Source: a phage
Length of the DNA stretch: 64,000 nucleotides
Direction: 5' to 3' (one strand)
Assembly (NCBI GenBank): GCA_014687725.1
Contig: GCA_014687725.1_4094.1
In this document: piece after piece, positions 29,467 through 42,282 of the stretch
Layout of the letters: each line of letters opens with the position of its first letter
Position numbering within the stretch: position 1 is the first letter of the stretch
The notes under the pieces: generated by a model
Told to the model about the DNA's origin: nothing
The model's database searches: none
What the model saw: only the letters and a program-made list of their open reading frames with translations
Position numbers and translations under genes: made by a program

Positions 29467-29548
29467 GAGAATAGATTAAAAGTACTATTGCACGGTGATA
29501 GTACTTTATAATAGATTTCTTTTATACAACAACGATAGGGGTAACAGC

Positions 29549-29815
29549 ATGAATATTATATACTTTGCAACGCGTGAACTTGCTCGGATTGCCGCACGCC
29601 AGGACGGGGCGACGTTTAAAGATATGGGCGTACAATCTGAACGTGGTAAACGTTGGGCCGTAGTAAAGCAAAGTACAGCCCGTTCAATTCAGTACTGGCT
29701 ATCTGCTTTAAAGCGTCCTGATAGTGTATCGCGTCGCGTGGTAGAAATAAAGCACGACCGCAAGGGCAACCGCGTTACTGTGTACAGTACTAAAAAGATT
29801 GCAGTACTTGAATAA
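29549..29815 (+). CDS. hypothetical early protein, paralog of 41865-42260
   Basis: Shared YATRE.ARI.AR..GA.FKDMG...RWAV and HDRKGNRVTVYS blocks. Confidence 0.55.
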   Translation: MNIIYFATRELARIAARQDGATFKDMGVQSERGKRWAVVKQSTARSIQYWLSALKRPDSVSRRVVEIKHDRKGNRVTVYSTKKIAVLE

Positions 29816-29901
29816 AAAGTACTTGCAAACTATGTTTAAGGGCGTATAATGTTTTACATCGAGAGCGGGAATAGTTCCCGCCTATAACCAGGAGTAATAA
29901 A

Positions 29902-30132
29902 ATGACCAATATGTATATGACTGAAGTTAAAACCGTAAAAGATACTACCACTAATAAAACTACTTACTTACAGCGGATCTGCGGTGTATGGCAACGTATC
30001 AGCAAATCAAAGTACTTTAAATTAACATCATATGCCAATCGTTCGGATTCATTCAGTACTGAAATAAAAGGTAATAAAGTACACCAATACGGCACTTATT
30101 ATTATTATAGCCTGGAGGCGATTGCAGTATAA
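29902..30132 (+). CDS. hypothetical early protein
   Basis: Promoter + GCGGGAA-tag-TTCCCGC leader hairpin + AGGAG. Confidence 0.55.
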   Translation: MTNMYMTEVKTVKDTTTNKTTYLQRICGVWQRISKSKYFKLTSYANRSDSFSTEIKGNKVHQYGTYYYYSLEAIAV

Positions 30133-30159
30133 GTAGTTTACAAATCTTTACAATTGCCA

Positions 30160-30350
30160 GTATTGACTTATTTTGTCAGTACTGGCATAATGTATTCATT
30201 GGCAGATAAGCCGTAGCCCATAGGGTGCGGGAGTGTATCTATAGAAAAATTAGTTTAGTATAGTTACAATTGTGCACCCGGTGGGTTAGCTGTTGTCATG
30301 GGGTATATTATGCCAGTACTTGATAATGCTGTCAATACTTTTTTTTAATA
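30160..30350 (+). repeat. structured repeat element with own promoter (candidate small RNA)
   Basis: TTGACT, 17 nt, CATAAT, then inverted arms CCCATAGGGTGC ... GCACCCGGTGGG and U-run; arms recur elsewhere. Confidence 0.35.
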
Positions 30351-30559
30351 TTCAGTACTGAAAACTATTTTTAAAAAGTACTTGCAAACTATGTTTAAAG
30401 GCGTATAATGTTTTACATCAGGACGGGGGACGAAATAAGTAACTTCCCGTTAAGTAGCCCAGGAGTAAGGCACACGAAAAACTCCCCTGATAAAATAGTT
30501 TGACAATTGTTTTTAAAAGCGTATAATACTTACATCAACTACTGAATGAGGGTTACAAA

Positions 30560-31171
30560 ATGAAAACTATCACTACTACTACTTTCGTTATGGATTTTTC
30601 TGAATTGAACGCAGAACAACAAACGTCAGCTATCGAACTGGTTCGGGAACGTGAAAAAAACTCAAACGACAATTATTTTTCTGAAAGTGAAATTGAATAC
30701 TATAAAGAAACAGTACTACCGGAATATGGCATTAATGACGCTGAAATACAATTCAGTGGTTTTTGGTCCCAGGGTGACGGTGCATCAATCAGTACTGACC
30801 ACGTTGACGCAGTGAAGTTTTTACGCAAGGTAAGAGCATTAACTAAGTATCGCTCAATCCGTCACCTGCTGAATGAAGATGATTTGGCGATGAGTGTAAA
30901 GCGTTCTCACTCCCACTACTCGCATGAGAATACTGTAAGCGGGTACATTGAATCGGCTTACACTGATTTAACCGCAAAACAAGAAACGTTAGTTAATGAG
31001 CTTGAGGAACTACTCACTGAAACTATTCGTGAATTGTCCCGCAAGTTGTACCGTGATTTAGAGAATGCATATGAGGATCAATTCACTACTGAAAACATTA
31101 CGGCACTGATTGAGGGTAACGAATATCAATTCAATGTTATTGATGGCGTAGTAGAATCAATCGAATATTAA
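30560..31171 (+). CDS. hypothetical early protein (203 aa)
   Basis: Tandem promoters with structured leader upstream; ATG after GAGGG. Confidence 0.6.
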   Translation: MKTITTTTFVMDFSELNAEQQTSAIELVREREKNSNDNYFSESEIEYYKETVLPEYGINDAEIQFSGFWSQGDGASISTDHVDAVKFLRKVRALTKYRSIRHLLNEDDLAMSVKRSHSHYSHENTVSGYIESAYTDLTAKQETLVNELEELLTETIRELSRKLYRDLENAYEDQFTTENITALIEGNEYQFNVIDGVVESIEY

Positions 31172-31264
31172 TTCAAAAAGTACTTGCAAACTAAGTTTAA
31201 AAGCGTATAATACTTTATATCGAGGCGGGGAATGGTTCCCCGCTCACACTAAAAGGGCAACAAA

Positions 31265-31537
31265 ATGAAAACTTTAAATATCACAACTGCACATCAATTG
31301 GTTCGGGATGCAATGGATCATGTGCAAGATTTCTTCCCTGATGTAAGTGTCGTAACTTATGAAAAAGGTACTTGGACTTATTCAACAATTAATGGTTATG
31401 AGCCTGATTTCGATGATCTGGAAGAAATGGAATTTAATTTTGATCTGCTGAATGATGCCGCCCGTGAAGTTGAAAACGATGTTCAATACATTGATGGTTC
31501 TGTCGCACCTGATGCAGTAAAAGAATTAAAAAACTAA
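31265..31537 (+). CDS. hypothetical acidic protein
   Basis: Promoter + leader hairpin + ATG. Confidence 0.55.
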   Translation: MKTLNITTAHQLVRDAMDHVQDFFPDVSVVTYEKGTWTYSTINGYEPDFDDLEEMEFNFDLLNDAAREVENDVQYIDGSVAPDAVKELKN

Positions 31538-31622
31538 AAAGTACTTGCATTGTAGTTAGATTAACGTATAATACTTTATATCGAGGCGGGGAATGGTTCC
31601 CGCCTTTACTGAGGGTTATCTA

Positions 31623-31883
31623 ATGAGCAAAGTAATTAACTATACAGTGTTAAGCAAGTCATTGTCTATTAGCCAATGTACTGATGGTTATTGGCTTTAT
31701 GATGAAACGCGTGGCATGAATTTAGCTATGCAGGAGAAAACTACTGATGCGGCATATCTTAAAGCACTGGAATACTACCAGAAGCGTTTAAAGGAAGTAG
31801 AAAACGATTATAATAACCTGAAAGCGAAAGTAGATAATTTCGTTGGTCAATTCATCGAGGAAGACGACGACATACAATATTGA
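31623..31883 (+). CDS. hypothetical early protein
   Basis: Start moved to ATG downstream of leader hairpin. Confidence 0.5.
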   Translation: MSKVINYTVLSKSLSISQCTDGYWLYDETRGMNLAMQEKTTDAAYLKALEYYQKRLKEVENDYNNLKAKVDNFVGQFIEEDDDIQY

Positions 31884-31968
31884 AAAAGTACTTGCAATTA
31901 GTTTTTAGTACTGTATAATGGTTTACATAGAGGGGGAAATGGTTCTCCCTGGTAATGAGGAAAATAAA

Positions 31969-32190
31969 ATGGCTAATATCACTACTCTTTCCCAACTGGA
32001 AGCACTGGTTAAATCTATGCGGGAACATGCCGACAAAATCGGCGTACAAGATCCAGCCGTTTGCTTCTGCGACGAATTGAATGATGATACCCTGGTAATA
32101 GCAGAAGTCCAGGACGTTTCTAACTATTCCTCGCGTTACACTGGCGGCGTAGCAAATAAAGGTGACTTCTGTTTATACCTTACAAAATAA
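31969..32190 (+). CDS. hypothetical early protein
   Basis: Start moved to MANITTL after AATGAGGAAAATAAA. Confidence 0.5.
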   Translation: MANITTLSQLEALVKSMREHADKIGVQDPAVCFCDELNDDTLVIAEVQDVSNYSSRYTGGVANKGDFCLYLTK

Positions 32191-32194
32191 CAAC

Positions 32195-32225
32195 GCGGGG
32201 AGATAATAACTCCCCGTTACTTTTT
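32195..32225 (+). terminator. intrinsic terminator
   Basis: GGGGAG-ataataa-CTCCCC then gttaCTTTTT. Confidence 0.5.
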
Positions 32226-32433
32226 CAGTACTGAATCATTTAATAGACGGATCTCGGCACCCGGTGGGTTAGTGACTGTTTCGTCTTGATGTAGTAATTA
32301 TGCCAGTACTGGATGCACTTGTCAACAACTATTTTTCAAATACTTTTTATTAAAATACTTGCAATTAGTTTTTAAACGCGTATAATGTTTTGCATAGGGG
32401 GAGCGGTTCCCCTGGTAACTAAGGAATAAGAAA

Positions 32434-32670
32434 ATGGTCGAACAAATCAAATCAACGTCTTCGAATGTAACGGGAACGGTAGCACACTTTACTAGTGATG
32501 AATCGCGGGGCGTTCCCTATTGTGCTGTACATGTAAACACTGAGGGTAACTACTGGTTTACGGTTTACGGATCATATTCATTTGGACGGCCAGGGCATCA
32601 AAAAATTCTGGATAAAGTACAACCAACGGGTAAAAATATCACTGCCGAAATGTTTTATAAAAAATCATAA
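32434..32670 (+). CDS. hypothetical early protein
   Basis: Promoter + hairpin + AAGGAATAAGAAAATG. Confidence 0.55.
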   Translation: MVEQIKSTSSNVTGTVAHFTSDESRGVPYCAVHVNTEGNYWFTVYGSYSFGRPGHQKILDKVQPTGKNITAEMFYKKS

Positions 32671-32754
32671 AGTACTTGATAATAGTTTTTAGTACTGTAT
32701 AATATTTTACATCGCAAGGGGGAGCGGTTCCCCCTGGTAACTAAGGATAATCAA

Positions 32755-33054
32755 ATGAAAATTGCAATCATCGCCCTGGCTTTATCTGTTTCCTCTTTCG
32801 CTGTTAATGCGTCATTAGATGTAAGTAGTGAAAAATTCATTCAGTGCACTGTTGCAATGACCGATGAAAGTACTGGCGAGATTGTTTTAAAGGATTTAGA
32901 GATCCAGCCAGAAGCATTTAAAAACGGGCCGTTCCATGAAGAAGACGAAAAAGGTAGCACGACAATTTATTACGATGCAAGTACTAAACGCGGTTCGGTC
33001 ACTGTTATGGATACTGAGAAAGTTACATTCACTGGCGTAATTAATTGTTTATAA
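32755..33054 (+). CDS. secreted/periplasmic small protein (predicted signal peptide)
   Basis: MKIAIIALALSVSSFAVNA/SLD: n-h-c regions with AxA-like cleavage site. Confidence 0.6.
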   Translation: MKIAIIALALSVSSFAVNASLDVSSEKFIQCTVAMTDESTGEIVLKDLEIQPEAFKNGPFHEEDEKGSTTIYYDASTKRGSVTVMDTEKVTFTGVINCL

Positions 33055-33071
33055 TATAGTACTGAATCACT

Positions 33072-33100
33072 AGCCCACTATAAGAAGTGGGCTTTTTTTA
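33072..33100 (+). terminator. intrinsic terminator
   Basis: AGCCCACT-ataagaa-GTGGGCT + TTTTTTT. Confidence 0.65.
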
Positions 33101-33292
33101 TTGTAGTATTGTAGTACTGGTATACTTTGAAAATAGTTTTAAAAAAGTAGTTGACATTACCAGGGAAAAGCGTAGAATGTATTACATCAAGACGGGGAAC
33201 ACTAAGTAGACCGCCAGTAAGTCGAATGAAAAACTGGACACGTCAAACAAACTTTGATAAACTAACTTAAACTTTAATTGAGGATTTATAAA

Positions 33293-33775
33293 ATGGCTAA
33301 TGTAAAATCATTTCTGAAAGCACTGATTTCTAACGATACTGTTATTGCTGCTGAATTGCTGGCTGACCTGGATAATGATACCATGAAAGCAGTACGCAAC
33401 AATTTTAACATTGCTTACAGTGAAGCGAAAGAACTACAAGCCAAAAAGGTAGCAGAACTGGAAGAACAGAAAAAAGCCCGTGAAGCAGAACTGCAAGCAA
33501 CAATAGAAAGTATTCAGGCGGCGGTGTCTGGTTTAGATCTGGAAGTGGTTATTGAAATGGCACATAAAGCCCTGGCGGTTAAGTACGGTGAAGATAAGCC
33601 GGAATCTAAGCCTAAAAAATGGATTCAAGAACGTGTTACGGTTGTCCTTGATAACGGGGAAGAACATTTGATTCCTGTACGCGGTAACTGCATTGCGGTA
33701 GTACTGGATGCAATCAAAGAAAGCGGTATGACTCGCGAGGAATGGATCGAAGCTCACCGCAAAGTTGAAGCATAA
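33293..33775 (+). CDS. hypothetical protein (160 aa), coiled-coil-like central region
   Basis: Start moved to MANVKSF after GAGGA; K/E/A-rich heptad-like stretch. Confidence 0.55.
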   Translation: MANVKSFLKALISNDTVIAAELLADLDNDTMKAVRNNFNIAYSEAKELQAKKVAELEEQKKAREAELQATIESIQAAVSGLDLEVVIEMAHKALAVKYGEDKPESKPKKWIQERVTVVLDNGEEHLIPVRGNCIAVVLDAIKESGMTREEWIEAHRKVEA

Positions 33776-33796
33776 CAATTAAAGTACTGAATCACT

Positions 33797-33823
33797 AGCC
33801 CACTGTATAAGTGGGCTTTTTTG
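33797..33823 (+). terminator. intrinsic terminator
   Basis: AGCCCACT-gtata-AGTGGGCT + TTTTTT. Confidence 0.65.
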
Positions 33824-34059
33824 TGTTTATCGTTTACCAGGCCACCAGCACCGCCTAGAATCGATTCTAACGCATTAAACTGATTATCTGATGCATCGCC
33901 CTAGCTGGTGGCGTTAAGGTCGTTAGAATGCGATTGAGGACGTTTAAAGTATTTTGCAAAAAGTAATAAAAAGTACTTGCACGATTAAGAGATTAGCGTA
34001 TAATGTTTTACATCGAGAGGGGGAAACGGTTCTCCTTCCAAATCAAAGGAATCAAAACA

Positions 34060-34287
34060 ATGGCTATCGTAATCGCTTATGTAACTGGTACTACTGGCAC
34101 TTCTTCTACTGTTGCTGTAATTACCAACAAGAAAGGTGCGGAATTACATTCTGCAATGGATACCTGGGCGGTAAATGAGTTCGGTCAGTGGGCAAGTGTA
34201 GCATATGTTGAAACCTATCAAGTGCCAACCATTAGCTTAACGGATCTCGGTGTAGATCGTATCCTTTGCCTGGATGAATTAAATTAA
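34060..34287 (+). CDS. hypothetical early protein
   Basis: Start moved to MAIVIAY downstream of leader hairpin. Confidence 0.5.
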   Translation: MAIVIAYVTGTTGTSSTVAVITNKKGAELHSAMDTWAVNEFGQWASVAYVETYQVPTISLTDLGVDRILCLDELN

Positions 34288-34373
34288 AAAAGTACTTGCA
34301 AAGTAAATCAGATAAAGTATAATACATTACATCAAGGGGAGAAATGGTTCTCCCTGATAATGAGGAAACTAAT

Positions 34374-34517
34374 ATGAAAACTTGTCAATGTGGTAAAAAA
34401 TCTATTACTGGTTTAAAGCGGGGCGTTGCTCTTTGCCAGTACCATTATAATTTACAAGTATGGGGTAAAGAATGGGCCGACCAGGTGGAAGCAGCAAAGA
34501 AAGCAAAAAGTAAGTAA
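34374..34517 (+). CDS. small Cys-containing protein (47 aa)
   Basis: Below track cutoff; full promoter-hairpin-SD-ATG context; CQCG...C.YH pattern. Confidence 0.4.
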   Translation: MKTCQCGKKSITGLKRGVALCQYHYNLQVWGKEWADQVEAAKKAKSK

Positions 34518-34536
34518 AATTATTATCACAGTACTA

Positions 34537-34565
34537 TTGACATAGATTGATAGTACTGGCATAAT
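34537..34565 (+). promoter_or_regulatory. early promoter (type 2, AGTACT-flanked)
   Basis: cAGTACTaTTGACA, 17 nt, gatAGTACTGG-CATAAT; no 5' hairpin; recurs at ~34820, ~37690, ~37970, ~38500, ~45410. Confidence 0.5.
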
Positions 34566-34598
34566 AGATTTTATCAAGACAACTAAGAGGAAACAATA

Positions 34599-34811
34599 AT
34601 GGCTATCATCACAAAAATCAAAGTAAACAAATCACTGGTTAAGCTGGAAGAAGTGAAAGAAGGTTATAAAGTATCGTGGTGCGGCATGTATCGGATTTTT
34701 ACAGATGTTGACGATGCAATCAATTACTACACTGACACGGTAAAAAACTTTGTTCGTGCTGATGTGGTTATGGCAGTGGCAACACACAAAGCATCGAAAG
34801 AAAGTAAGTAA
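34599..34811 (+). CDS. hypothetical early protein, paralog of 37763-37942
   Basis: Both start MAII.K; type-2 promoter upstream. Confidence 0.55.
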   Translation: MAIITKIKVNKSLVKLEEVKEGYKVSWCGMYRIFTDVDDAINYYTDTVKNFVRADVVMAVATHKASKESK

Positions 34812-34892
34812 AAATATTATCACAGTACTATTGACATAGTTTGATAGTACTGGCATAATAGATTTTATCAAGACAACTAAGAGGAAATTAAA

Positions 34893-35237
34893 ATGGCTAA
34901 TATCAACACTATCGCAAAACAAAATATCAACCTGTCTTCTGTTGAAGTTGTACATATTGCCGCTCGGCGTTGGTTCCAGGCTTCATATGGTAACACTTAT
35001 TTCTCTTTAAGTGTAGACGTAGAAATTGATGGTAATTTTATTGAAGTAGTAAACGTGCCGTTCCAATATGGATACGGGGATCACTTTGACACTGTAGCAA
35101 TGGAAGAATTTAGCAAGGTTATTAATATGGAAGATAAAGAGTTTTTACGCGGTTCTTATCTTTCCCGTTTTTGCCGTGACAATAATATCACTGTTTACAG
35201 TTCGGTAACTGATGTTAAACGCAAAAAAGATCTTTAA
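34893..35237 (+). CDS. hypothetical protein, paralog of 41446-41769
   Basis: Shared W...GNTY.S..V and F.YGYG and ITVY..V.DVKRKKD blocks. Confidence 0.6.
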   Translation: MANINTIAKQNINLSSVEVVHIAARRWFQASYGNTYFSLSVDVEIDGNFIEVVNVPFQYGYGDHFDTVAMEEFSKVINMEDKEFLRGSYLSRFCRDNNITVYSSVTDVKRKKDL

Positions 35238-35317
35238 TTAGCTTTACTTTATGCAGATACTTTGATATAGTGTCTGCATAGGGGAAAGAAATTAAATTAA
35301 CTTAAGAGGATAGTATA

Positions 35318-35587
35318 ATGAAAAATATCAGTACTTTAATTGATGCAGGTACACATGTTCGGCGGTCTATGGTTGCAACCAGTACTACAAAACAAGTAGC
35401 GAGCGGTTATCTTGTATTTGTGCACGATGGTAAACTCCTGGAACGTTCAATCAATTTTGATGTTAAAAACAATTGCCGTTTTATTATCTTTAAGCGTGAA
35501 CAATATAAAATTGATTTACCAGCGAAGCCCATAAGCGGGGCGTATAACGTCTATTCATTGTTTGAGCGTCAACCATACACCTATTAA
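35318..35587 (+). CDS. hypothetical early protein
   Basis: ATG after AAGAGGA. Confidence 0.5.
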   Translation: MKNISTLIDAGTHVRRSMVATSTTKQVASGYLVFVHDGKLLERSINFDVKNNCRFIIFKREQYKIDLPAKPISGAYNVYSLFERQPYTY

Positions 35588-35638
35588 TCAAAACATCGTT
35601 AGCGGTCGATTTAGGCCGCTTATATTGGGGATTATACC

Positions 35639-35911: not shown

Positions 35912-35916
35912 TTAAT

Positions 35917-36126: not shown

Positions 36127-36195
36127 TTTTTAAACGCGTATAATGTTTTACATGAAGGGGAGAAATGATTCTCCCCACTAATTAAGGAATATGAA

Positions 36196-36342
36196 ATGAA
36201 AGCATCAAAAAAGAGTAATACTAAGAAAGCACGTTCACCTTTCGCTGGGGTATTCCCTTTACGTTTCGTTGATGAAGTGGTTTCCTACCCGCCTGGCCTT
36301 ACTCCTGAGATGGTAGAAAGTTTGCGTAAATCTAAAAAATAA
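36196..36342 (+). CDS. small basic protein (48 aa)
   Basis: Below track cutoff; promoter, GGGGAGAA-atga-TTCTCCCC hairpin, AAGGAAT SD. Confidence 0.4.
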   Translation: MKASKKSNTKKARSPFAGVFPLRFVDEVVSYPPGLTPEMVESLRKSKK

Positions 36343-36423
36343 TACTTGCAATTAGTTTTTAGTACTGTATAATAGTTTACATGAAGGGGAGAAATAGTTC
36401 TCCCCAATAACAGGAGAAACAAA

Positions 36424-36576
36424 ATGAAACAATATAATGCTCGGATGGATGTAACTATCGGTAACGGCAAAGGTCAATTCTCTTTCAGTACTCGCAAAAG
36501 TTATACAGAAAACTTCCTGCGTAATTGTGCACTGACCGCCGCACAAATTAAACATTACTTTCAGGCTAAAAAATGA
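36424..36576 (+). CDS. small protein (50 aa)
   Basis: Below track cutoff; same promoter/hairpin/SD context. Confidence 0.4.
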   Translation: MKQYNARMDVTIGNGKGQFSFSTRKSYTENFLRNCALTAAQIKHYFQAKK

Positions 36577-36662
36577 AATCATTAGCTTATTACAGTTCGG
36601 CCCTGGTCGGTGCATTGATCGCGGCATTGTTAGTAACCTATCTATTCTTTATGGTGATTTAA
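36573..36662 (+). CDS. very small hydrophobic peptide (29 aa)
   Basis: ATGA-coupled; single predicted TM helix; speculative. Confidence 0.25.
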   Translation: MKSLAYYSSALVGALIAALLVTYLFFMVI

Positions 36663-36800
36663 ATGAATCCTAACGGTTTAATTTACAGTACTCCTAAAAC
36701 GAAAGCAGATAAAGCGAAAGCACGTAAAGCGAAAGTAAAGGAGTACATCAAGCAAGGCATGACGCGAAAGGCGGCAATTCTAAAAGCTAAAAATAAATGA
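36663..36800 (+). CDS. small lysine-rich protein (45 aa)
   Basis: TAAATG coupling; followed by terminator/promoter hairpin. Confidence 0.35.
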   Translation: MNPNGLIYSTPKTKADKAKARKAKVKEYIKQGMTRKAAILKAKNK

Positions 36801-36810
36801 AAAAAAAAGT

Positions 36811-36840
36811 GGTTGACTTCGGTCAGCCATTTTGCTATTA
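36811..36840 (+). promoter_or_regulatory. terminator/promoter element (copy 4)
   Basis: GGTTGAC-TTCG-GTCAGCC hairpin, TTTT, TATTAT. Confidence 0.5.
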
Positions 36841-37024
36841 TGTATTCATTGAGAGATAGCTCACTAGCCCACAGGGTGCATAAGTGTATCTATTGTATAA
36901 TGATTGAGTACTGAAAACTATTTTAAAGTATTTGATAAAAAGTACTTGCATACTATCTCAATAGGCGTATAATGTTTTACATCGCAAGGGGAAACGGTTT
37001 CCCCTGGTAATAAGGAAACGAATC

Positions 37025-37366
37025 ATGACTATTGCAATTGCTCAATCTAACTTTGAAAACGAAATCATCGCTCAGGCACTGCGTTTAAATGATGGTCGGG
37101 CCGAAATCAATTACGGTTTCAATAGTGGTGGATGTGAAAAATATCAGTACTTTATAACTGCTGATGGCGGTGTCCTGGGCATCAATACCGTTATTGTAAA
37201 CATTCAGAAAATTAATTTCAATGATCCAGACGATAGCCAGTTTTACATCACGGGCGTAGACGTGAACTATGAGGATGACTCACTAACTGATGATCACACT
37301 GGTGAGAAGTTAGAAAGTGCATACGGTGAAGATGATTATCAGTCCGGTCCAGAAGATTTCGAATAA
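37025..37366 (+). CDS. hypothetical acidic protein
   Basis: Promoter + leader hairpin + AAGGAAACGAATCATG. Confidence 0.55.
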   Translation: MTIAIAQSNFENEIIAQALRLNDGRAEINYGFNSGGCEKYQYFITADGGVLGINTVIVNIQKINFNDPDDSQFYITGVDVNYEDDSLTDDHTGEKLESAYGEDDYQSGPEDFE

Positions 37367-37458
37367 TATTAAAAAATAGTTTGACAATAGTTTTTAGTAC
37401 TGTATAATAGTTTACATGAAGGGGAGAAATGATTCTCCCCACTAAGAGGAAAAACAAA

Positions 37459-37671
37459 ATGGCTAATATCCGCACTGTACTGAAAAATGCAAAACAAGTT
37501 TTATTTTCTGATCATGAAAATTTCAACAAGGATATCACAGGTGTTCGGAATATCAAAGATGTAAAAAGTGTTATGGGTATCTATTGCAATATGAAACGTG
37601 TTGGCACGTTCGGCGATAAAGTACTATACCAGGCAGGGGATTACAATTTTACACTGACTATCATTAACTAA
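37459..37671 (+). CDS. hypothetical early protein
   Basis: Start moved to MANIRTV after AAGAGGA. Confidence 0.55.
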   Translation: MANIRTVLKNAKQVLFSDHENFNKDITGVRNIKDVKSVMGIYCNMKRVGTFGDKVLYQAGDYNFTLTIIN

Positions 37672-37762
37672 AAATATTATCACAGTACTATTGACAACGT
37701 TTGATAGTACTGGCATAATAACTTTTATCAAGACAACGCATATTAATTTAAGGAATACTAAA

Positions 37763-37942
37763 ATGGCTATTATCGCAAAAACTGAAATCATCGGCCTGGA
37801 TTCTATCATCATGACGTTTGAAGATCAAAAAGGGATGTATGTAGTTTCCTATGGTGATTATGTTCGGGAGTATGAAACGGTAGACGAAGCCTTTGAAAGT
37901 TACATTCGCCAGGTGAATAAAGCATACGACGACTACCGCTAA
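37763..37942 (+). CDS. hypothetical early protein, paralog of 34599-34811
   Basis: Start moved to MAIIAKT; type-2 promoter upstream. Confidence 0.5.
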   Translation: MAIIAKTEIIGLDSIIMTFEDQKGMYVVSYGDYVREYETVDEAFESYIRQVNKAYDDYR

Positions 37943-38041
37943 AATATATTACCAGTACTATTAAATCTATTGACAATGATTGATAGTACAGTATAATAAG
38001 TTTTATAAACAGTAGTTAACTTAACCTAAGAGAGAAACAAA

Positions 38042-38185
38042 ATGATCGCACTGGATTCATTCATCGACGCAGTACTGGCAAAAACTGGCGAGGATCTGAC
38101 CGCAGAACAATACGCGATGATCGAGCAATGCCAGCAAAACGGTAAATCGGTGAAAGATACTGTTAAGATTATCCGCAAGATGTAA
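38042..38185 (+). CDS. small protein (47 aa)
   Basis: Below track cutoff; type-2 promoter, AAGAGAGAAA SD, terminator downstream. Confidence 0.4.
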   Translation: MIALDSFIDAVLAKTGEDLTAEQYAMIEQCQQNGKSVKDTVKIIRKM

Positions 38186-38191
38186 GAATAT

Positions 38192-38220
38192 AGCCCACTG
38201 GTTAACGCTGGTGGGCTTTA
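38192..38220 (+). terminator. intrinsic terminator containing a Chi octamer
   Basis: AGCCCAC-tggttaacgct-GGTGGGCT + TTT; GCTGGTGG at ~38207-38214. Confidence 0.45.
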
Positions 38221-38290
38221 ATCATTTACCCTATACAATGCCAGTACTAAACCGTTTAACTCGTTAGAATGCATTACAGGACGTTTAACA

Positions 38291-38488
38291 ATGATTAGCA
38301 TGAAATCAGTACAAAAACAAATTGATACATTATCAAAAATTAAACGTAAACAATACTCATTAGAATATACAATCAATGGTAACTATCATCTAATGAAAGA
38401 GAATAATTTCATAGTCATTGATGAATCATTGCAAGTTATTAGTATAGTACTGAAAGCATTAATCAATGACAGAAAAAAGTTAAAATAA
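38291..38488 (+). CDS. hypothetical AT-rich small protein
   Basis: Track ORF; weak start context. Confidence 0.35.
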   Translation: MISMKSVQKQIDTLSKIKRKQYSLEYTINGNYHLMKENNFIVIDESLQVISIVLKALINDRKKLK

Positions 38489-38589
38489 TCTATTGACAAA
38501 TTATGCCAGTACTGGCATAATACTTACATCAAGACGAGAACGTCACTAACCCATAGGGTGCACAAATGTAGCTGTCTAATATTGATCAA

Positions 38590-38640
38590 AAAATGATCTG
38601 ATCAATACTTGATCAATTTGCGTAAAGTAGTATAATTCTA
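38590..38640. repeat. cluster of TGATCA/GATC motifs
   Basis: tgatcaaaaaatgatctgatcaatacttgatcaa in a ~240-bp gene-free stretch. Confidence 0.4.
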
Positions 38641-38819
38641 TGCAGTTGGTTAGACGAAAGGTTATGATTAGTAGTGGAAGTGTATAAAAATTTTCATGGT
38701 GTGGTGATCCGCACATATGGGGATGAATATGTCGTGTCGTATGGATTGGAAAAAGTAAGAACAAGTAATATACTTGTCGCGTTACAGTACTATAGTATTT
38801 TTATAATGAGGTTAAAATA

Positions 38820-39077
38820 ATGGCTGTAGGATTCACGAAAGATGGGGCCGAGCAAGACGAGATTAACGCAGTGATTCAGGCCGCTGTTAACCACGCTAGA
38901 ACGCAAATTAACGCACAAATAGAATCACTGATACATTGCCTCGACTGCGGCGATATAATCCCTGAGAAACGACGCCAGGCCGTTAAGGGATGTAAGTACT
39001 GCATAACTTGCCAGGAGGATCATGATAGTACTTTTAAACGTCCCCCGCGTAATTGTTGGCATAGATCTATGAGATAA
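38820..39077 (+). CDS. TraR/DksA-family C4 zinc-finger protein
   Basis: CLDCGDIIPEKRRQAVKGCKYCITCQ: CxxC-17-CxxC spacing typical of TraR/DksA. Confidence 0.7.
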   Translation: MAVGFTKDGAEQDEINAVIQAAVNHARTQINAQIESLIHCLDCGDIIPEKRRQAVKGCKYCITCQEDHDSTFKRPPRNCWHRSMR

Positions 39078-39140
39078 AAAGTATTGACAGTACTGAAAGA
39101 TAGTGTATAATATTTTATATCTTAACTGAGGATTGAAATC

Positions 39141-39497
39141 ATGGGAATACAACATATCACGCGTACTACTGACAATGGCGAGATCACTGGCTATCAAGTA
39201 CAGGGCAAAGTAGCACAATTGCAGTACTGGTTTGTTAAACGTGGAATCATTGCACCGGATCTTGATTATGACCGTGTAGCGTTTATTGATTCTCTTTATG
39301 TTGATCCTGATAGTCGGGGCAATGGTGAAGGTAACGAATTAATGAATGCCTTTATTGATGCCGCCGATGATTCAGATTGTATCATTTTAGAATGCGATAC
39401 GGGAGAAGATAACGCCTTTAATCTTAAAGAATGGTACGAAGGTTTCGGATTCGAGGTACTGATCGATAGTGAATATCCTATCATGATTTTATCATAG
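39141..39497 (+). CDS. GNAT-like N-acetyltransferase (small)
   Basis: VAFIDSLYVDPDSRGNGEGNELMNAF ... NAFNLKEWYEGFGF resembles GNAT motifs A/B. Confidence 0.5.
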   Translation: MGIQHITRTTDNGEITGYQVQGKVAQLQYWFVKRGIIAPDLDYDRVAFIDSLYVDPDSRGNGEGNELMNAFIDAADDSDCIILECDTGEDNAFNLKEWYEGFGFEVLIDSEYPIMILS

Positions 39498-39575
39498 TAC
39501 TTGCATTTAGTTTTCAGTACTGTTATAGTACTTACATCAAGGGGAAACATCTTCCCCTACTAAGAGGAAATAAAA

Positions 39576-39764
39576 ATGGAAAACTTATCAAGTATTTTAG
39601 TACAAGATGATTTCGGTAATCCTGGAAGTGCTATCATTGTTCGGGGTAATAAAGCAACATTTGTTATTGCTGGTGGACCTGTACAGCGTAGCATTAAAAA
39701 TAATGCTGTTACCATTAATAATGTACGCTATCGCTTAGATAAAGAATTGATTCATAAACTTTAA
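39576..39764 (+). CDS. hypothetical early protein
   Basis: Promoter + hairpin + AAGAGGAAATAAAAATG. Confidence 0.5.
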   Translation: MENLSSILVQDDFGNPGSAIIVRGNKATFVIAGGPVQRSIKNNAVTINNVRYRLDKELIHKL

Positions 39765-39848
39765 AAAGTATTTGACAATAGATTATAGTACTGTATAATA
39801 AGTTACATGAAGGGGTGAAATGATTCTCCCCACTAAGAGGAAAGAAAA

Positions 39849-40061
39849 ATGCAAGGTCAACTAATCGTTCGTAAATGGTCTGATACTAACGAAAAACCGT
39901 GGGATGTACAATACATCGGACCGGATGGGGTATCACGTTATCAGCCTGGCGTAACGCATAGTACTGAGCAATTCGCAAACGCTCACCGCGAACGCCTGTT
40001 AGAATCCATGAAACAGGGATTCTGTGAAAAATTCATTCAAGATCATTGGCTGAAAGATTAA
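39849..40061 (+). CDS. hypothetical early protein
   Basis: Promoter + hairpin + SD. Confidence 0.55.
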   Translation: MQGQLIVRKWSDTNEKPWDVQYIGPDGVSRYQPGVTHSTEQFANAHRERLLESMKQGFCEKFIQDHWLKD

Positions 40062-40078
40062 TATAAGGAGTACAGCTT

Positions 40079-40171
40079 ATGCAAATGAATCCGATGATTA
40101 TTGTTTTAGCTGTACTTATGATCATTCATGCAATAGTAGAAGTATTAACGCAATCAGGAGTAATAAAATGA
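40079..40171 (+). CDS. very small hydrophobic peptide (30 aa)
   Basis: AAGGAG 8 nt upstream; ATGA-coupled to next ORF; speculative. Confidence 0.3.
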   Translation: MQMNPMIIVLAVLMIIHAIVEVLTQSGVIK

Positions 40172-40341
40172 TTCAAGTAGAATTATCAGTACTGAAAGAT
40201 CTGTTTTATCGGTTAGGTACTACTGGCGAGTATCCTAAAAGTGATACCGCAAAACTTTTTGTATCACTCGACTTATGGCAACGCGAACAATTAGTAATGT
40301 CCTGGCGTAAAGGTAAAGCAGATAGCGAGGTGAAAGCATGA
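40168..40341 (+). CDS. small protein (57 aa)
   Basis: Below track cutoff; ATGA coupling both sides. Confidence 0.4.
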   Translation: MIQVELSVLKDLFYRLGTTGEYPKSDTAKLFVSLDLWQREQLVMSWRKGKADSEVKA

Positions 40342-40487
40342 AAGAATTCTTATTCGAAGTAGTGTTTCAAGGTGTCGGTAGTAACCAACTGATTCGCTCA
40401 AGTGGTTACAATGTTAACCAGGCATGGAATAACATTAAACAAATGTACCCGAACGCTATCACCTATCGCAACCCGAAACAAGTTTAA
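40338..40487 (+). CDS. small protein (49 aa)
   Basis: Below track cutoff; followed by terminator/promoter hairpin. Confidence 0.4.
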   Translation: MKEFLFEVVFQGVGSNQLIRSSGYNVNQAWNNIKQMYPNAITYRNPKQV

Positions 40488-40501
40488 AAATAATTGAAAA
40501 A

Positions 40502-40534
40502 GGGATTGACTCCGGTCAGTCCCTTTGCTATTAT
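40502..40534 (+). promoter_or_regulatory. terminator/promoter element (copy 5)
   Basis: GGGATTGAC-TCCG-GTCAGTCCC, TTTG, TTGACT/17 nt/TATTAT. Confidence 0.55.
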
Positions 40535-40635
40535 ATACGCATAGAAACAAATCAGCCCACAGGGTGCATAAATGTATCTATTGTTTGCTGGTGGCTAGTA
40601 CTATCAAGTACTGAAAACTATTTTTAAAAAAGTAC

Positions 40636-40663
40636 TTGCATTGTACTTAGAATCAAGTATAAT
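40636..40663 (+). promoter_or_regulatory. early promoter P1 of tandem pair
   Basis: TTGCAT, 16 nt, TATAAT; upstream A/T-rich tract and TCAGTACTGA. Confidence 0.5.
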
Positions 40664-40751
40664 GTTTTACATCAGGACGGGGAACGAAACAAGTAACCCC
40701 GTTAAGTAGTCCAGGAGTAAGACATAAGAAAACCTCCCCTGATAAAATAGT

Positions 40752-40779
40752 TTGACAATAGAAAGTAAACGAGTATAAT
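40752..40779 (+). promoter_or_regulatory. early promoter P2 of tandem pair
   Basis: TTGACA, 16 nt, TATAAT; separated from P1 by a ~60-nt structured leader, duplicated at 30360-30560. Confidence 0.5.
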
Positions 40780-40812
40780 ACTTACATCAACCACTGATAA
40801 GGAAACATTAAA

Positions 40813-41088
40813 ATGCGGATTCTACTGACAGCTAACGAAATCGAACAAGTACTGACTACTAACCTGGAAGACTGGAAACGTGAAGCAGATATCCAGGCGG
40901 TTCAACGGCTTAACGATGAGTTAACGCCGGATGACTTAAGCAAGATTGTAGATCCTCAATTCTACGAAGATATCCACGACACCGCGTTAAGCGTCGAGGA
41001 TGTACTAGATAAGCACTACATTGATATTGATTTGCAGGTTTACGGTCGTAAAAACTTTATCACTATTCACGACATTTACAATAATTAA
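40813..41088 (+). CDS. hypothetical acidic protein
   Basis: ATG after AAGGAAACATTAAA. Confidence 0.55.
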   Translation: MRILLTANEIEQVLTTNLEDWKREADIQAVQRLNDELTPDDLSKIVDPQFYEDIHDTALSVEDVLDKHYIDIDLQVYGRKNFITIHDIYNN

Positions 41089-41174
41089 GTATTGACAAAG
41101 TATCTTAGTACTGTATAATAGTTTACATCGAGAGGGGGAATGGTTCCCCTCCTAACAAAGAGAGAGAAATAAAA

Positions 41175-41357
41175 ATGGCTAAATGCACTATCTGTAAGAA
41201 AGAAATCGTATTAGTTCCAAGTGCCCGTGAACGTGCCGCTCGGTTCGGTGGCAAACCGTCAGACTATACAAAAATGTTTACTGTCCATGCAGCTTGCCAG
41301 GTAGCAAAACGTTCACAAGAAAGCGTAGAATTAATGCGTAAACTTTCCAAAAAATAA
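41175..41357 (+). CDS. hypothetical small protein
   Basis: Promoter + hairpin + GAGAGAGAAATAAAAATG. Confidence 0.5.
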   Translation: MAKCTICKKEIVLVPSARERAARFGGKPSDYTKMFTVHAACQVAKRSQESVELMRKLSKK

Positions 41358-41445
41358 GTATTGACAAAGTATCTTAGTACTGTATAATAGTTTACATCAA
41401 GTGAGGGGAAACGGTTCCCCTCCTAACAAAGAGAGAGAAATAAAA

Positions 41446-41769
41446 ATGGCTATGATCCTTGCCCAGAAAGTAGAACTGAAAATTGTAACCTCCTTTGACA
41501 TTAAAGTTAATCGGTGGACTGATTCACACGGCAATACTTACCACTCTTGCTACGTGTCTGCGTTAATTGGTGATCGTTGGGAAGACCTGGGACATGAAAC
41601 CTTTACATACGGTTACGGCACACAAGGCGAATACACGGGCTTGGAGATCATTAAAGAAACCGTTATAGGTTTCAACCCGAAAGAAACAGTTATTCACCGC
41701 ATCGAGGAAGAGATCAACAAAGAAATAACAGTTCGATACTACGATGTAAAACGTAAGAAAGATATGTAA
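41446..41769 (+). CDS. hypothetical protein, paralog of 34893-35237
   Basis: Start moved to MAMILAQ; duplicated promoter/leader with 41175 gene. Confidence 0.55.
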   Translation: MAMILAQKVELKIVTSFDIKVNRWTDSHGNTYHSCYVSALIGDRWEDLGHETFTYGYGTQGEYTGLEIIKETVIGFNPKETVIHRIEEEINKEITVRYYDVKRKKDM

Positions 41770-41864
41770 TAGAATCCATTTAAAGTACTATTTGACATTG
41801 CCCAGATAGTACTTTATAATAGACTCTAACTTGTAGTACTAACTCAACTAATAGGATGTATACC

Positions 41865-42260
41865 ATGATTACTAAATTCTACGCTACCCGTGAAGCTGCC
41901 CGTATTGTTGCACGCGAGGAAGGAGCAGCATTTAAAGACATGGGCAAAGATGCACCGAAAGGCCAACGCTGGGCCGTACAGTTCAAAGAGATCTCTGATA
42001 TTGTGAATTCACCTGAGCCAGTACTAACAGCAGCAGAACTAAAACGAGCGGATTTACTGGCGTCAATACTTGATGCACAAGATGAGTTTATCGCTGATTC
42101 TGATATCAAAGTACAGACAAACCATACCGCTTGGACTCACGCGGATCACCTGGCAAACCTGAAGCGTCCAAGTGAACTGGTACGCAACCAGAAAGAGATC
42201 CGACACGACCGTAAGGGTAATCGTGTAACAGTATACAGTAAACGCCGCCAGGTTATCTAA
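41865..42260 (+). CDS. hypothetical protein, paralog of 29549-29815
   Basis: Start moved to second ATG (AGGA upstream). Confidence 0.55.
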   Translation: MITKFYATREAARIVAREEGAAFKDMGKDAPKGQRWAVQFKEISDIVNSPEPVLTAAELKRADLLASILDAQDEFIADSDIKVQTNHTAWTHADHLANLKRPSELVRNQKEIRHDRKGNRVTVYSKRRQVI

Positions 42261-42282
42261 TAACTTGCAGTACTAACAACAC

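What the first reader, a model, noticed from the sequence alone, without database searches (positions are those of the whole stretch)
29549..42260. Several early small proteins exist as diverged paralog pairs kilobases apart
29549-29815 vs 41865-42260 (shared YATRE.ARI, RWAV and HDRKGNRVTVYS blocks), 34893-35237 vs 41446-41769 (GNTY, F.YGYG, ITVY..V.DVKRKKD), 34599-34811 vs 37763-37942, and the tandem pair 42630/42906 with duplicated promoter-leader. Duplication and divergence is therefore pervasive, not confined to the arrays.
Basis: seen in the sequence. Interest (0 to 1): 0.4.

Follow-up and report, generated by a model that had tools for sequence, protein, structure and literature searches.

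The report
Two real paralog pairs, shared promoters
In the early-gene terminal repeat of a jumbo E. coli phage, only two of the four claimed gene pairs are truly related, and one of those is a swapped-in gene from another phage group; what really repeats everywhere is the promoter-leader in front of each small gene, which is an ordinary feature of large phages.

Summary
The window comes from a 121Q/PBECO4-like jumbo coliphage (Asteriusvirus). The flagged stretch lies inside the equivalent of its ~21-kb direct terminal repeat. That region holds about 50 single-gene cassettes, each with a consensus sigma70 promoter, usually a 5' GC hairpin, a Shine-Dalgarno site and a small ORF.

- **Pair A (29549 / 41865): real.** E = 3e-18, both in phrog_8127. 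The duplication is old, and both copies sit at fixed positions across the genus. A1 has lost a 38-codon acidic middle segment.
- **Pair B (34893 / 41446): real homologs.** E = 2e-8, both in phrog_6246. However, the window's B1 is a replacement allele that groups with phi92-like phages (75-83% identity). Most relatives carry a different resident paralog at that locus.
- **Pair C (34599 / 37763): unproven.** hhalign gives 43% probability. The visible similarity is mainly a shared 105-nt promoter-leader plus the first codons.
- **Pair D (42630 / 42906): not paralogs.** The proteins are unrelated; only a ~60-nt promoter-leader is shared.

Only 4 of 50 genes have a significant paralog in this region, so "pervasive duplication" is overstated.

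Two things were noticed in passing. Long-form A genes are always followed by a ParE/YafQ-like toxin-fold gene. The hexamer AGTACT is 12-fold over-represented.

The parts
27011..47520 (+). Equivalent of the ~21-kb direct terminal repeat (early region) of Asteriusviruses. It holds about 50 small + strand genes. The boundaries are approximate and inferred by synteny.
   Evidence: Gene-for-gene synteny with EcMJ_001-053, which lie inside the annotated 21,525-bp 'Direct Terminal Repeats' of vB_Ec-M-J. fEgEco12 has a 20,993-bp DTR confirmed by restriction digests, and Sharanji has one of 20,668 bp. Region identity to relatives is 93-95% but patchy.
29549..29815 (+). A1: the short (88 aa), very basic paralog of family A (phrog_8127).
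   Evidence: The orthologous locus in another Asteriusvirus-like genome (L014) carries a 125-aa long form. The window lacks 114 nt at about 29662-29705. pI is 10.8.
41865..42260 (+). A2: the long (131 aa) member of family A. It has basic N- and C-terminal modules and an acidic middle (residues 41-98).
42283..42307 (+). Intrinsic terminator (GGCGGGATCAGTTCCCGCC followed by T6) between A2 and the ParE-like gene.
   Evidence: UE-S1's annotation marks a terminator at the same place.
42322..42576 (+). ParE/YafQ-like toxin-fold gene (84 aa, pI 10.2) directly downstream of A2. No consensus promoter of its own was found.
   Evidence: Pfam PF24732 ParE_like, E = 6.4e-11, 42.5 bits against a cutoff of 24.4. 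Homologs also pass the cutoff. Adjacency is conserved in 11/11 loci and in further jumbo phages by coordinates.
34893..35237 (+). B1: the 'type I' allele of family B (phrog_6246), closest to phi92-like phages.
   Evidence: 100% identical to phAPEC6 and 95% to UE-S1. 75-84% aa and ~80% nt identity to phi92 and Phapecoctavirus, in the CDS only. Only 33% to the gene at this locus in most Asteriusviruses.
34872..35210 (+). The segment that differs between type I and type II genomes, i.e. the replaced cassette body.
   Evidence: DNA alignment A3. The flanks are identical upstream through the promoter. Downstream they are identical from the last 27 nt of the CDS (GATGTTAAACGCAAAAAAGATCTTTAA) onward.
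41446..41769 (+). B2: the resident family-B member, conserved at 94-97% in all Asteriusviruses examined.
   Evidence: It forms a clade with the type II genes.
34599..34811 (+). C1 (phrog_35559). Present in only some relatives.
37763..37942 (+). C2 (phrog_9374). Conserved in all relatives, and 46% identical in RaK2.
34507..34611 (+). Type-2 promoter-leader in front of C1. Further copies lie at 34801-34905 (before B1, 93%), 37661-37765 (before C2, 70%) and 45383-45487 (62%).
   Evidence: Repeat family D7 and alignment A5.
42630..42848 (+). D1 (72 aa). Not related in sequence to D2.
42906..43148 (+). D2 (80 aa).
42573..42629 (+). D1 promoter-leader (TTGACA-17-TACTAT). It is duplicated at 42849-42905 in front of D2.
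   Evidence: Alignment A4 and the promoter scan.
41792..41820 (+). A2 promoter (TTGACA-17-TATAAT) with no hairpin leader. The A1 upstream region (29480-29512) is a degenerate copy of it.
41344..41452 (+). B2 promoter, hairpin and leader. It is a 91-96% copy of the neighbouring head at 41075-41181, which drives an unrelated 60-aa ORF.
   Evidence: Repeat families D6 and D13.

Best explanation
The flagged stretch is the host-RNA-polymerase-driven early region of an Asteriusvirus jumbo coliphage. It is the DNA that forms the ~21-kb direct terminal repeat in related phages.

The region is built from about 50 self-contained cassettes. Each has an AT-rich/AGTACT element, a near-consensus sigma70 promoter, usually an 8-9-bp GC hairpin at the 5' end of the transcript, a Shine-Dalgarno site and a small ORF. 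These cassette heads are repeated dozens of times and fall into a few sequence classes. The classes do not follow protein homology.

Inferred mechanism: the repeated heads, together with short conserved coding ends, supply homology for recombination. That recombination adds, deletes, replaces and occasionally duplicates ORFs, within a genome and between co-infecting phages. T4-type PeSL cassettes work this way.

Against this background only two protein families occur twice.

**Family A** duplicated long ago as a whole cassette.
- A2 keeps the ancestral long form and is coupled to a ParE/YafQ-like gene downstream.
- A1 is an unpartnered copy that lost its acidic middle by an in-frame deletion of 38 codons.
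- Both copies are kept by purifying selection.

**Family B** has two loci.
- B2 and the 'type II' gene at the upstream locus are the lineage's own paralogs.
- In this phage the upstream locus instead carries a 'type I' gene from the phi92-like gene pool. It was swapped in between the leader and the conserved last codons.

Pairs C and D are cassette-head similarity, not demonstrated protein paralogy.

Shown here: the homology statistics, synteny, allele dimorphism with its junctions, the family tree, the deletion and the cassette anatomy. Inferred: the recombination mechanism, early expression, and the functions of all the proteins.
For: Identity and setting:
- Phage identity and patchy mosaic similarity to relatives.
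- DTR synteny.

Cassette anatomy:
- 28-copy repeat families.
- 31 consensus promoters, each about 50 nt from an ATG.
- 24/31 promoters are followed by a hairpin of -9 to -17 kcal/mol. Stem sequences differ between copies but stay paired.
- The same grammar occurs in relatives. An identical 27-nt leader occurs in phi92.

Frequency of paralogy:
- Only pairs A and B are significant among 1225 pairs.

Pair A:
- Both copies are syntenic in 121Q, slurp01, BAU, UE-S1 and EcMJ.
- Only 7/19 and 12/21 third codon positions are identical in identical-residue codons.
- A long form sits at the A1 locus in L014, with a 114-nt indel relative to the window.
- The promoter regions of A1 and A2 are homologous.

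Pair B:
- The B1 locus is dimorphic, and junctions were mapped.
- Nucleotide similarity to Phapecoctavirus is confined to the CDS.
- In the NJ tree, B1 sits inside the phi92-like clade, while B2 and type II sit together.

Cassette-head similarity is decoupled from ORF homology:
- The C1 and B1 heads are 93% identical.
- The B2 head is a 91-96% copy of its neighbour's.
- The D1 and D2 heads are ~80% identical while the proteins are unrelated.

Gene-by-gene mosaicism:
- Identity to relatives varies gene by gene. Several genes have 55-86% homologs in phi92 and Av-05.

Published background:
- PeSL precedent: PMC2839356.
- Paralogs are already reported as ~10% of RaK2 gene products (PMC3622015) and as 22 ORFs in CBB (PMC5259590).
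Against: - No transcript data exist. Promoters, 5' hairpins and early timing are predictions.
- The terminal-repeat status of this particular phage is inferred from relatives.
- Recombination at cassette heads was not tested statistically. It rests on one mapped replacement (B1), whose 3' junction lies in conserved codons rather than in a cassette head.
- The direction of B1 transfer rests on an unbootstrapped NJ tree of 15 sequences and on breadth of distribution.
- Remote homology of C1 and C2 is not excluded (hhalign 43%).
- Structural paralogy of D1 and D2 was not tested.
Confidence: 0.75

Rival explanations
1. One reading: all four pairs are in-genome duplicates that diverged in place, and duplication is a pervasive source of the small early genes.
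For: - Pairs A and B are true homologs.
- The window also holds three tandem paralog arrays.
- RaK2-like phages are reported to have ~10% paralogous products.
- C1 and C2 show a weak profile match.
Against: - Only 4/50 genes are significantly paired.
- D1 and D2 score below the shuffle mean.
- Pair C falls within the noise of 1225 comparisons. Its conspicuous identity lies in a leader and start codons that non-homologous genes also share.
- B1 groups with another phage subfamily, not with B2.
Confidence: 0.1
2. B1 type I is the ancestral Asteriusvirus gene and was exported to phi92-like phages. Type II would then be the later replacement.
For: - Nucleotide identity between window B1 and phi92-like genes is only ~80%, so no recent donor has been sampled.
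- Type I occurs in several Asteriusviruses: phAPEC6, UE-S1, L014 and a few others.
Against: - Type I relatives are near-universal and deeply diverse (60-84%) in ~150-kb phages, with over 140 records.
- Type II groups with the resident B2 and is found only in Asteriusviruses.
- Type I is the minority state in the genus.
Confidence: 0.12
3. The shared blocks in pair A (for example HDRKGNRVTVYS) reflect recent gene conversion between the two loci rather than old duplication under selection.
For: A 12-residue block is identical between copies that are otherwise ~35% identical.
Against: - Six of the 12 third codon positions in the block differ.
- Overall nucleotide identity in the conserved blocks is 60-68%.
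- Each copy is 85-98% conserved with its own orthologs across the genus.
Confidence: 0.03

Closest known systems
PeSL cassettes (promoter-early stem-loop) of T4-type phages RB49/phi1 (Arbiol et al. 2010, PMC2839356; Comeau et al. 2014, PMC4122927)
   Same: - AT-rich upstream element, strong sigma70-consensus promoter, GGGG...CCCC stem-loop, Shine-Dalgarno site and start codon.
- Repeated in front of small genes of unknown function in a hyperplastic early region.
- Relatives differ by insertion, deletion and replacement of single ORFs.
   Different: - A different phage lineage (RaK2-like jumbo phages).
- The region forms the terminal repeat.
- The hairpin lies about 14 nt downstream of the -10, inside the predicted 5' UTR, and lacks a U-tract. 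It is therefore more likely a 5' mRNA stabiliser than a terminator.
- Mini-circles and terminator activity were not tested.
- The one mapped replacement has only its 5' junction in the cassette head.
Paralogous gene families of RaK2-like jumbo phages (RaK2: ~10% of products, PMC3622015; CBB: 22 ORFs, PMC5259590)
   Same: Small hypothetical proteins present in more than one copy in one genome, in phages of the same supergroup.
   Different: In the text I could search, those reports list paralogs without resolving their origin. Here one pair is an old duplication with domain loss, and one is a replacement by a homolog from another phage group.
Type II toxin-antitoxin modules of the RelE/ParE superfamily (e.g. 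DinJ-YafQ, ParD-ParE)
   Same: - A small basic protein with a ParE-like domain (Pfam PF24732).
- It is preceded in the same orientation by a small gene (A2) with an acidic segment.
- The gene order is conserved over wide divergence.
   Different: - The upstream protein has no recognisable antitoxin or DNA-binding fold.
- The two genes are separated by 61 nt containing an intrinsic terminator.
- The setting is a lytic phage's early region.
- Toxicity and neutralisation are untested.
Pre-early genes in the terminal repeat of phage T5 (from my own knowledge)
   Same: Host-promoter-driven small genes located in a long direct terminal repeat, which is expected to enter the cell first.
   Different: No sequence relationship was found, and two-step DNA entry is not known for Asteriusviruses.

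Membership tests
PHROG phrog_8127 (family A) and phrog_6246 (family B) | A significant full-length match to the family HMM by both members of each pair. | tested here: met
   A1 1.9e-27 and A2 1e-35 to phrog_8127. B1 6.9e-43 and B2 3.1e-36 to phrog_6246. Both families are annotated 'unknown function'.
Same-family membership of C1 and C2 | A significant sequence or profile match between the two proteins. | tested here: inconclusive
   They fall in different PHROGs. No BLASTP hit. The iterative HMM search does not link them. hhalign probability is 27% and then 43%, P = 2.4e-4. Bonferroni 0.94 among 1225 pairs.
Same-family membership of D1 and D2 | A significant sequence match between the two proteins. 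| tested here: not met
   Smith-Waterman score 18 against a shuffle mean of 22.9. Neither protein hits any PHROG.
PeSL-type regulatory cassette | A sigma70-consensus promoter with an AT-rich upstream element, repeated in front of small ORFs. | tested here: met
   31 sites match TTGACA/TTGCAA-N17-TATAAT, most with TG at the extended -10 position and AAAAAGTAC upstream.
PeSL-type regulatory cassette | An adjacent stable G/C-rich stem-loop. | tested here: met
   24/31 promoters have an 8-9-bp hairpin of -9 to -17 kcal/mol. It always lies downstream of the -10, which is one of the five published PeSL subclasses.
PeSL-type regulatory cassette | The stem-loop acts as a terminator/attenuator, and recombination between cassettes yields mini-circles. 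| not testable with these tools
   This needs reporter assays and inverse PCR. The hairpins have no U-tract, which argues against intrinsic termination.
PeSL-type regulatory cassette | Breakpoints of insertion, deletion or replacement between relatives coincide with the cassettes. | tested here: inconclusive
   One replacement was mapped. Its 5' junction is in the leader and its 3' junction is in conserved terminal codons. Gene presence/absence and identity are mosaic. No genus-wide breakpoint statistics were computed.
Type II toxin-antitoxin (RelE/ParE superfamily) for A2 plus 42322-42576 | The toxin belongs to the RelE/ParE fold family. | tested here: met
   PF24732 ParE_like scores 42.5 bits against a cutoff of 24.4. 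Three divergent homologs score 31-41 bits. RefSeq and GenBank call the K64-1 and Muenster homologs 'YafQ-like ribonuclease toxin'. The profile has no PDB sequence match, and the structure was not modelled.
Type II toxin-antitoxin (RelE/ParE superfamily) for A2 plus 42322-42576 | A small partner gene immediately upstream in the same orientation, with conserved linkage. | tested here: met
   11/11 loci in hand. By coordinates, also in Yersinia fHe-Yen9-03/04, Serratia BF, Erwinia pEa_SNUABM_44/47/49, GAP32, fENko-Kae01, PHA46, 7t3, K64-1 and Muenster. All belong to one RaK2-like supergroup, so shared ancestry contributes to this pattern.
Type II toxin-antitoxin (RelE/ParE superfamily) for A2 plus 42322-42576 | The partner has a known antitoxin fold (RHH, HTH, Phd/YefM or AbrB). 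| tested here: not met
Type II toxin-antitoxin (RelE/ParE superfamily) for A2 plus 42322-42576 | Co-transcription, toxicity, and neutralisation by direct binding. | not testable with these tools
   Only circumstantial evidence exists. No promoter was found before the toxin gene, a terminator lies between the two genes, and the charges are complementary (-7 for the A2 middle against +9.7 for the ParE-like protein).
Direct terminal repeat of Asteriusvirus | The region is present at both ends of virion DNA. | not testable with these tools
   Inferred from synteny with annotated or experimentally supported DTRs in relatives. No reads are available for this phage.

The most novel reading that the evidence does not exclude
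Family A (phrog_8127) is an unrecognised partner, possibly an antitoxin or regulator, of a ParE/YafQ-fold toxin. The pair is carried in the first-entering terminal repeat of all RaK2-like jumbo phages.

On this reading, the acidic middle of the long form (A2) neutralises the basic toxin. A terminator between the two genes keeps the toxin sub-stoichiometric. The 'paralog' A1 is an orphan that lost the neutralising segment and kept only the basic, probably nucleic-acid-binding, modules. The paralog pair would then be a case of subfunctionalisation of a phage-borne toxin-partner system used in host takeover or counter-defence.
Probability: 0.3. Interest if true: 0.5.

Novelty: new member of a known kind. 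Interest (0 to 1): 0.25.

Why it matters
As stated, the finding is ordinary. Paralogous small genes and repeated early promoters are expected in large lytic phages, and this case adds an Asteriusvirus example of PeSL-like cassette architecture.

Its modest value lies in three points:
- It is a clean example showing that apparent paralogs in phage early regions can be replacement alleles drawn from a gene pool shared with unrelated phages (phi92-like, rV5-like).
- It is a warning that repeated promoter-leader DNA and conserved start codons can mimic protein paralogy when raw sequence is read by eye.
- It gives a testable lead: the conserved family-A / ParE-like gene pair in the terminal repeat of RaK2-like jumbo phages.

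Tried and rejected
Function of families A and B:
- Pfam, NCBIfam and PDB sequence searches gave nothing meaningful for A or B.
- A BFVD fold search returned only uncharacterised phage proteins.
- The afdb50 library was unavailable.

Pair C:
- The representative search returned two long hits, P0088 and P0092. Both are low-complexity repeats and were discarded.

Other ideas tested:
- Gene conversion as the cause of the identical block in pair A was rejected on synonymous differences.
- B-A adjacency as a conserved module was rejected. It occurs only in Asteriusviruses (order B2-A2) and Av-05 (order A-B). It is absent from RaK2 and from loci L009-L012.
- phiKp_21 as an independent (non-jumbo) carrier of the A module was rejected. 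It is a partial Alcyoneusvirus sequence.
- Rfam and tRNA scans of the window returned no hits.
- Several ORF starts in the mechanical ORF list (MVLP..., MFYIERGK...) are artefacts. They start at an ATG in the hairpin loop or leader, and they produced spurious N-terminal 'paralog' hits such as 34003 vs 43910.

Full report
**What the window is.** Megablast of 29000-43500 finds 172 phage records. The best are Asteriusvirus jumbo coliphages (BAU.Micro_ELP-22, fEgEco12, SHEFM2K, vB_Ec-M-J, 121Q and others) at 90-95% identity, but with only 35-75% coverage, which indicates a mosaic. The gene order matches 121Q genes 236-343. In vB_Ec-M-J, an annotated 21,525-bp 'Direct Terminal Repeats' feature covers genes EcMJ_001-053. 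These are the gene-for-gene equivalents of window ~27,011-47,520. fEgEco12 has a 20,993-bp DTR found by PhageTerm and confirmed by restriction digests, and Sharanji has one of 20,668 bp. The whole flagged interval therefore lies in the equivalent of the terminal repeat. For this particular phage that is an inference by synteny.

**Anatomy of the region.**
- Direct-repeat analysis finds families of up to 28 copies of a 50-96-nt unit.
- A pattern scan finds 31 sites matching TTGACA/TTGCAA-N17-TATAAT between 27408 and 46631. Most have TG at the extended -10 position, and most lie about 50 nt upstream of an ATG preceded by a Shine-Dalgarno site.
- In 24 of the 31, the sequence ACATCGAGAG is followed by an 8-9-bp GC hairpin of -9 to -17 kcal/mol. 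The stem sequence differs between copies but stays paired.
- A second head type (TTGACATAG..GATAGTACTGGCATAAT, 105 nt) precedes C1, B1, C2 and a gene near 45485.
- A third head type (TTGACA-17-TACTAT) precedes D1 and D2.
- The same grammar occurs in all relatives, and with different hairpins in RaK2. A 27-nt leader identical to window 29851-29880 follows gp231 in phi92.

This matches the published description of PeSL cassettes in T4-type phages: an AT-rich element, a sigma70 promoter, a GGGG..CCCC stem-loop, a Shine-Dalgarno site and an ATG, with recombination between cassettes shuffling ORFans (PMC2839356). One difference is that here the hairpin always lies downstream of the -10 and has no U-tract. 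I therefore infer a 5' mRNA hairpin rather than a terminator.

**Check of the four pairs.**
- *Pair A.* BLASTP E = 3e-18. Smith-Waterman 163 against 27.7 +/- 5.1 for shuffles. Both proteins are in phrog_8127.
- *Pair B.* E = 2.4e-8. Smith-Waterman 106 against 26.7 +/- 4.8. Both proteins are in phrog_6246 (same calls).
- *Pair C.* There is no BLASTP hit and the two proteins fall in different PHROGs. Smith-Waterman is 51 (p ~6e-4 uncorrected). After removing the first six residues, p is ~6e-3. An iterative HMM search over all fetched loci does not join them. hhalign gives 27% with shallow profiles and 43% with deeper ones. The eye-catching MAII.K start belongs to a conserved initiation region (ATGGCTAnnATC) that B1 and other unrelated genes also share (repeat families D18 and D20).
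- *Pair D.* The proteins score below the shuffle mean. Only ~60 nt of promoter-leader is ~80% identical.

With corrected start codons, 50 genes give 1225 pairs. Only A and B survive Bonferroni correction, at 1e-13 and 1e-6. Pair C ranks sixth at 0.94.

**History of pair A.**
- Both copies sit at syntenic positions in 121Q, slurp01, BAU, UE-S1 and vB_Ec-M-J. A1 is 90-94% conserved and A2 85-98%, while A1 and A2 are ~35% identical to each other. RaK2 and Av-05 each showed one copy in the stretches fetched.
- In the conserved blocks, nucleotide identity is 60-68%. Only 12/21 and 7/19 third positions of identical-residue codons match. The identical HDRKGNRVTVYS block therefore reflects selection on the protein, not recent conversion.
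- A2's N-terminal module is 75-85% identical to the long forms found elsewhere. A1's is 45-65% identical to everything.
- A1's C-terminal module is 81% identical to P0028 and P0029. P0029 is a 125-aa long form that lies at the A1 locus of another Asteriusvirus-like genome (L014). That locus is collinear with window 28701-30600 except for a 114-nt segment missing from the window at about 29662-29705. A1 is therefore a deletion derivative that lost the acidic middle.
- The upstream regions of A1 and A2 are recognisably homologous (AAAGTACTATT...GATAGTACTTTATAATAGA). Both lack the GC hairpin, which points to duplication of the whole cassette.

**History of pair B.**
- B2 is 94-97% conserved in all Asteriusviruses examined.
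- The B1 locus is dimorphic. Type I (window, UE-S1 at 95%, phAPEC6 at 100%, L014) is 75-84% identical to phi92 gp231 and to many Phapecoctavirus proteins.
- Type II (121Q gene 282, slurp01_00180, BAU, EcMJ_017) is only 33-35% identical to type I but 37-40% identical to B2.
- Nucleotide similarity to the ~150-kb phages (~80%) is confined to the CDS, 34942-35237.
- In a DNA alignment, type I and type II genomes are identical through the promoter. They are identical again from the last 27 nt of the CDS (encoding DVKRKKDL plus the stop) onward, and are unalignable in between.
- In an NJ tree, B2 and type II form one clade, and the window's B1 nests among phi92-like sequences.

**Wider mosaicism.** Gene-by-gene identity to five relatives ranges from absent to 100%, with abrupt changes between neighbouring genes. 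At least nine genes in the region have 55-86% homologs in phi92 or Av-05. Window 34300-34513 is 84% identical in DNA to phage W70. C1 occurs at 86% identity in the phi92-like phage A7_1. Head similarity is decoupled from ORF homology. The C1 and B1 heads are 93% identical. The B2 head is a 91-96% copy of its neighbour's, although that neighbour's ORF is unrelated.

**Comparison with the literature.** Paralogs are already reported for this phage supergroup: ~10% of RaK2 products (PMC3622015) and 22 ORFs in CBB. The CBB paper also describes RpoD-like promoters with UP elements concentrated in the early region and the terminal repeat (PMC5259590). The Asteriusvirus papers I could read mention the DTR but not promoters or paralogs. 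I therefore rate the finding as a new member of a known kind, with low interest.

**Noticed in passing: the A2 / ParE-like pair.**
- The gene after A2 (42322-42576) passes Pfam's threshold for PF24732, ParE-like toxin domain, at 42.5 bits against 24.4. Divergent homologs pass it too.
- Every long-form A gene in hand is followed directly by this gene, in 11/11 loci.
- tblastn coordinates show the same adjacency in Yersinia, Serratia, Erwinia, Cronobacter, Salmonella and Klebsiella jumbo phages. The record counts by genus are nearly the same for the two genes. Two database records call the gene 'YafQ-like ribonuclease toxin'.
- An intrinsic terminator lies between the two genes, and no promoter was found there.
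- A2's middle carries a charge of -7. The ParE-like protein carries +9.7. A1 lacks the middle and is +10.6.
- This suggests a toxin-partner module. However, all carriers belong to one supergroup, and A has no known antitoxin fold. I put the probability at about 0.3.

**Noticed in passing: AGTACT.**
- The hexamer occurs 252 times in the window against 21.6 expected. It is the most over-represented hexamer.
- It forms part of the promoters, but 154 copies lie in coding sequence, spread over all three codon phases.
- Two stretches, 47381-52759 and 55198-62914, have none.
- The enrichment is shared by RaK2-like relatives at 15-20-fold. It is 4.5-fold in the 121Q core region (genome positions 1-50,000). 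It is absent from the phi92 and Av-05 loci.
- I found no explanation and no report of it.

Noticed in passing
window 41865-42576 (A2, terminator 42283-42307, ParE-like gene 42322-42576): Long-form family-A genes are always followed directly by a ParE/YafQ-like toxin-fold gene (Pfam PF24732 above its cutoff). This holds across Asteriusvirus, Alcyoneusvirus and other RaK2-like jumbo phages. A terminator lies between the two genes, no second promoter was found, and their charges are complementary. It may be a toxin-partner module.
   Followed up: partly
whole window; none in 47381-52759 or 55198-62914: The palindrome AGTACT occurs 252 times against ~22 expected, making it the top hexamer. CAGTACTG occurs 50 times. 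It forms part of the early promoters but also lies in coding DNA in all three codon phases. The enrichment is shared by RaK2-like relatives and is absent from the phi92 and Av-05 loci. Unexplained.
   Followed up: partly
window 27408-46631: 31 near-consensus sigma70 promoters, one per small gene. 24 of them are followed by an 8-9-bp GC hairpin at the predicted 5' end of the mRNA. This is PeSL-like cassette architecture in the equivalent of a terminal repeat.
   Followed up: yes
window 40486-40580, 43763-43857, 46020-46114; related boxes at 28288-28356, 30210-30289, 36861, 38543: A ~95-nt element in three copies. It has an A-run, a hairpin and a T-run that embed a TTGACT -35, then TATTAT, then a conserved box AGCCCAYAGGGTGC..GTGTATCT. 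At 28275 and 30205 the box pairs with a downstream inverted copy to form a long hairpin (-36 and -45 kcal/mol). No ORF follows directly, and Rfam has no match.
   Followed up: partly
window 30382-30499 and 40636-40751 (also 33151): Consensus promoters whose shared leader (ACATCAGGACGGGG.ACGAAA.AAGTAAC..CCCGTTAAGTAG.CCAGGAGTAAG) is not followed by an ORF of 35 aa or more. Instead another promoter follows ~118 nt downstream. This may be a small RNA or a very short ORF.
   Followed up: no
window 41075-41181 vs 41344-41452: The promoter, hairpin, leader and first codons of B2 are a 91-96% copy of those of the neighbouring unrelated 60-aa gene (41175-41357). This is a recent duplication or conversion of a cassette head without its ORF.
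   Followed up: yes
window 28771, 29227, 31623, 32434, 34060, 37459, 44291, 44560 (gene starts); 34300-34513: Many genes in this region have 55-86% protein homologs in phi92 (Justusliebigvirus) or Av-05 (Vequintavirinae). One segment is 84% identical in DNA to phage W70. This points to an early-gene pool shared between unrelated coliphage groups.
   Followed up: partly
L014 10001-10378 (GCA_958319075.1 contig, 346,757 bp): This relative carries a 125-aa long form at the A1 locus, with no ParE-like gene after it. The central segment was therefore lost from A1 in most Asteriusviruses.
   Followed up: yes
window 8268-22471 (-), 22780-26800 (+), 47585-53971 (+): Three tandem paralog arrays flank the region. 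One is ~390-aa RCC1/WD40-like proteins, one is ~60-aa proteins and one is ~70-aa proteins. Many pairwise E-values fall between 1e-5 and 1e-65. The last array begins right at the inferred end of the terminal repeat.
   Followed up: partly
window 26800-28770: A ~2-kb stretch with no convincing gene. It contains the inferred left boundary of the terminal repeat (~27,011-27,026) and a promoter-like site at 27408 with a long hairpin.
   Followed up: no
window 38820-39077, 39141-39497, 43180-43764: The few genes in the region with recognisable domains. They are a DksA/TraR C4 zinc finger, a GNAT acetyltransferase and a weak protein-kinase-like protein (Pkinase E = 0.002, below the Pfam cutoff). One relative's annotation includes a 'serine/threonine-protein kinase PknA' in the matched stretch; I did not map it to this gene.
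   Followed up: no
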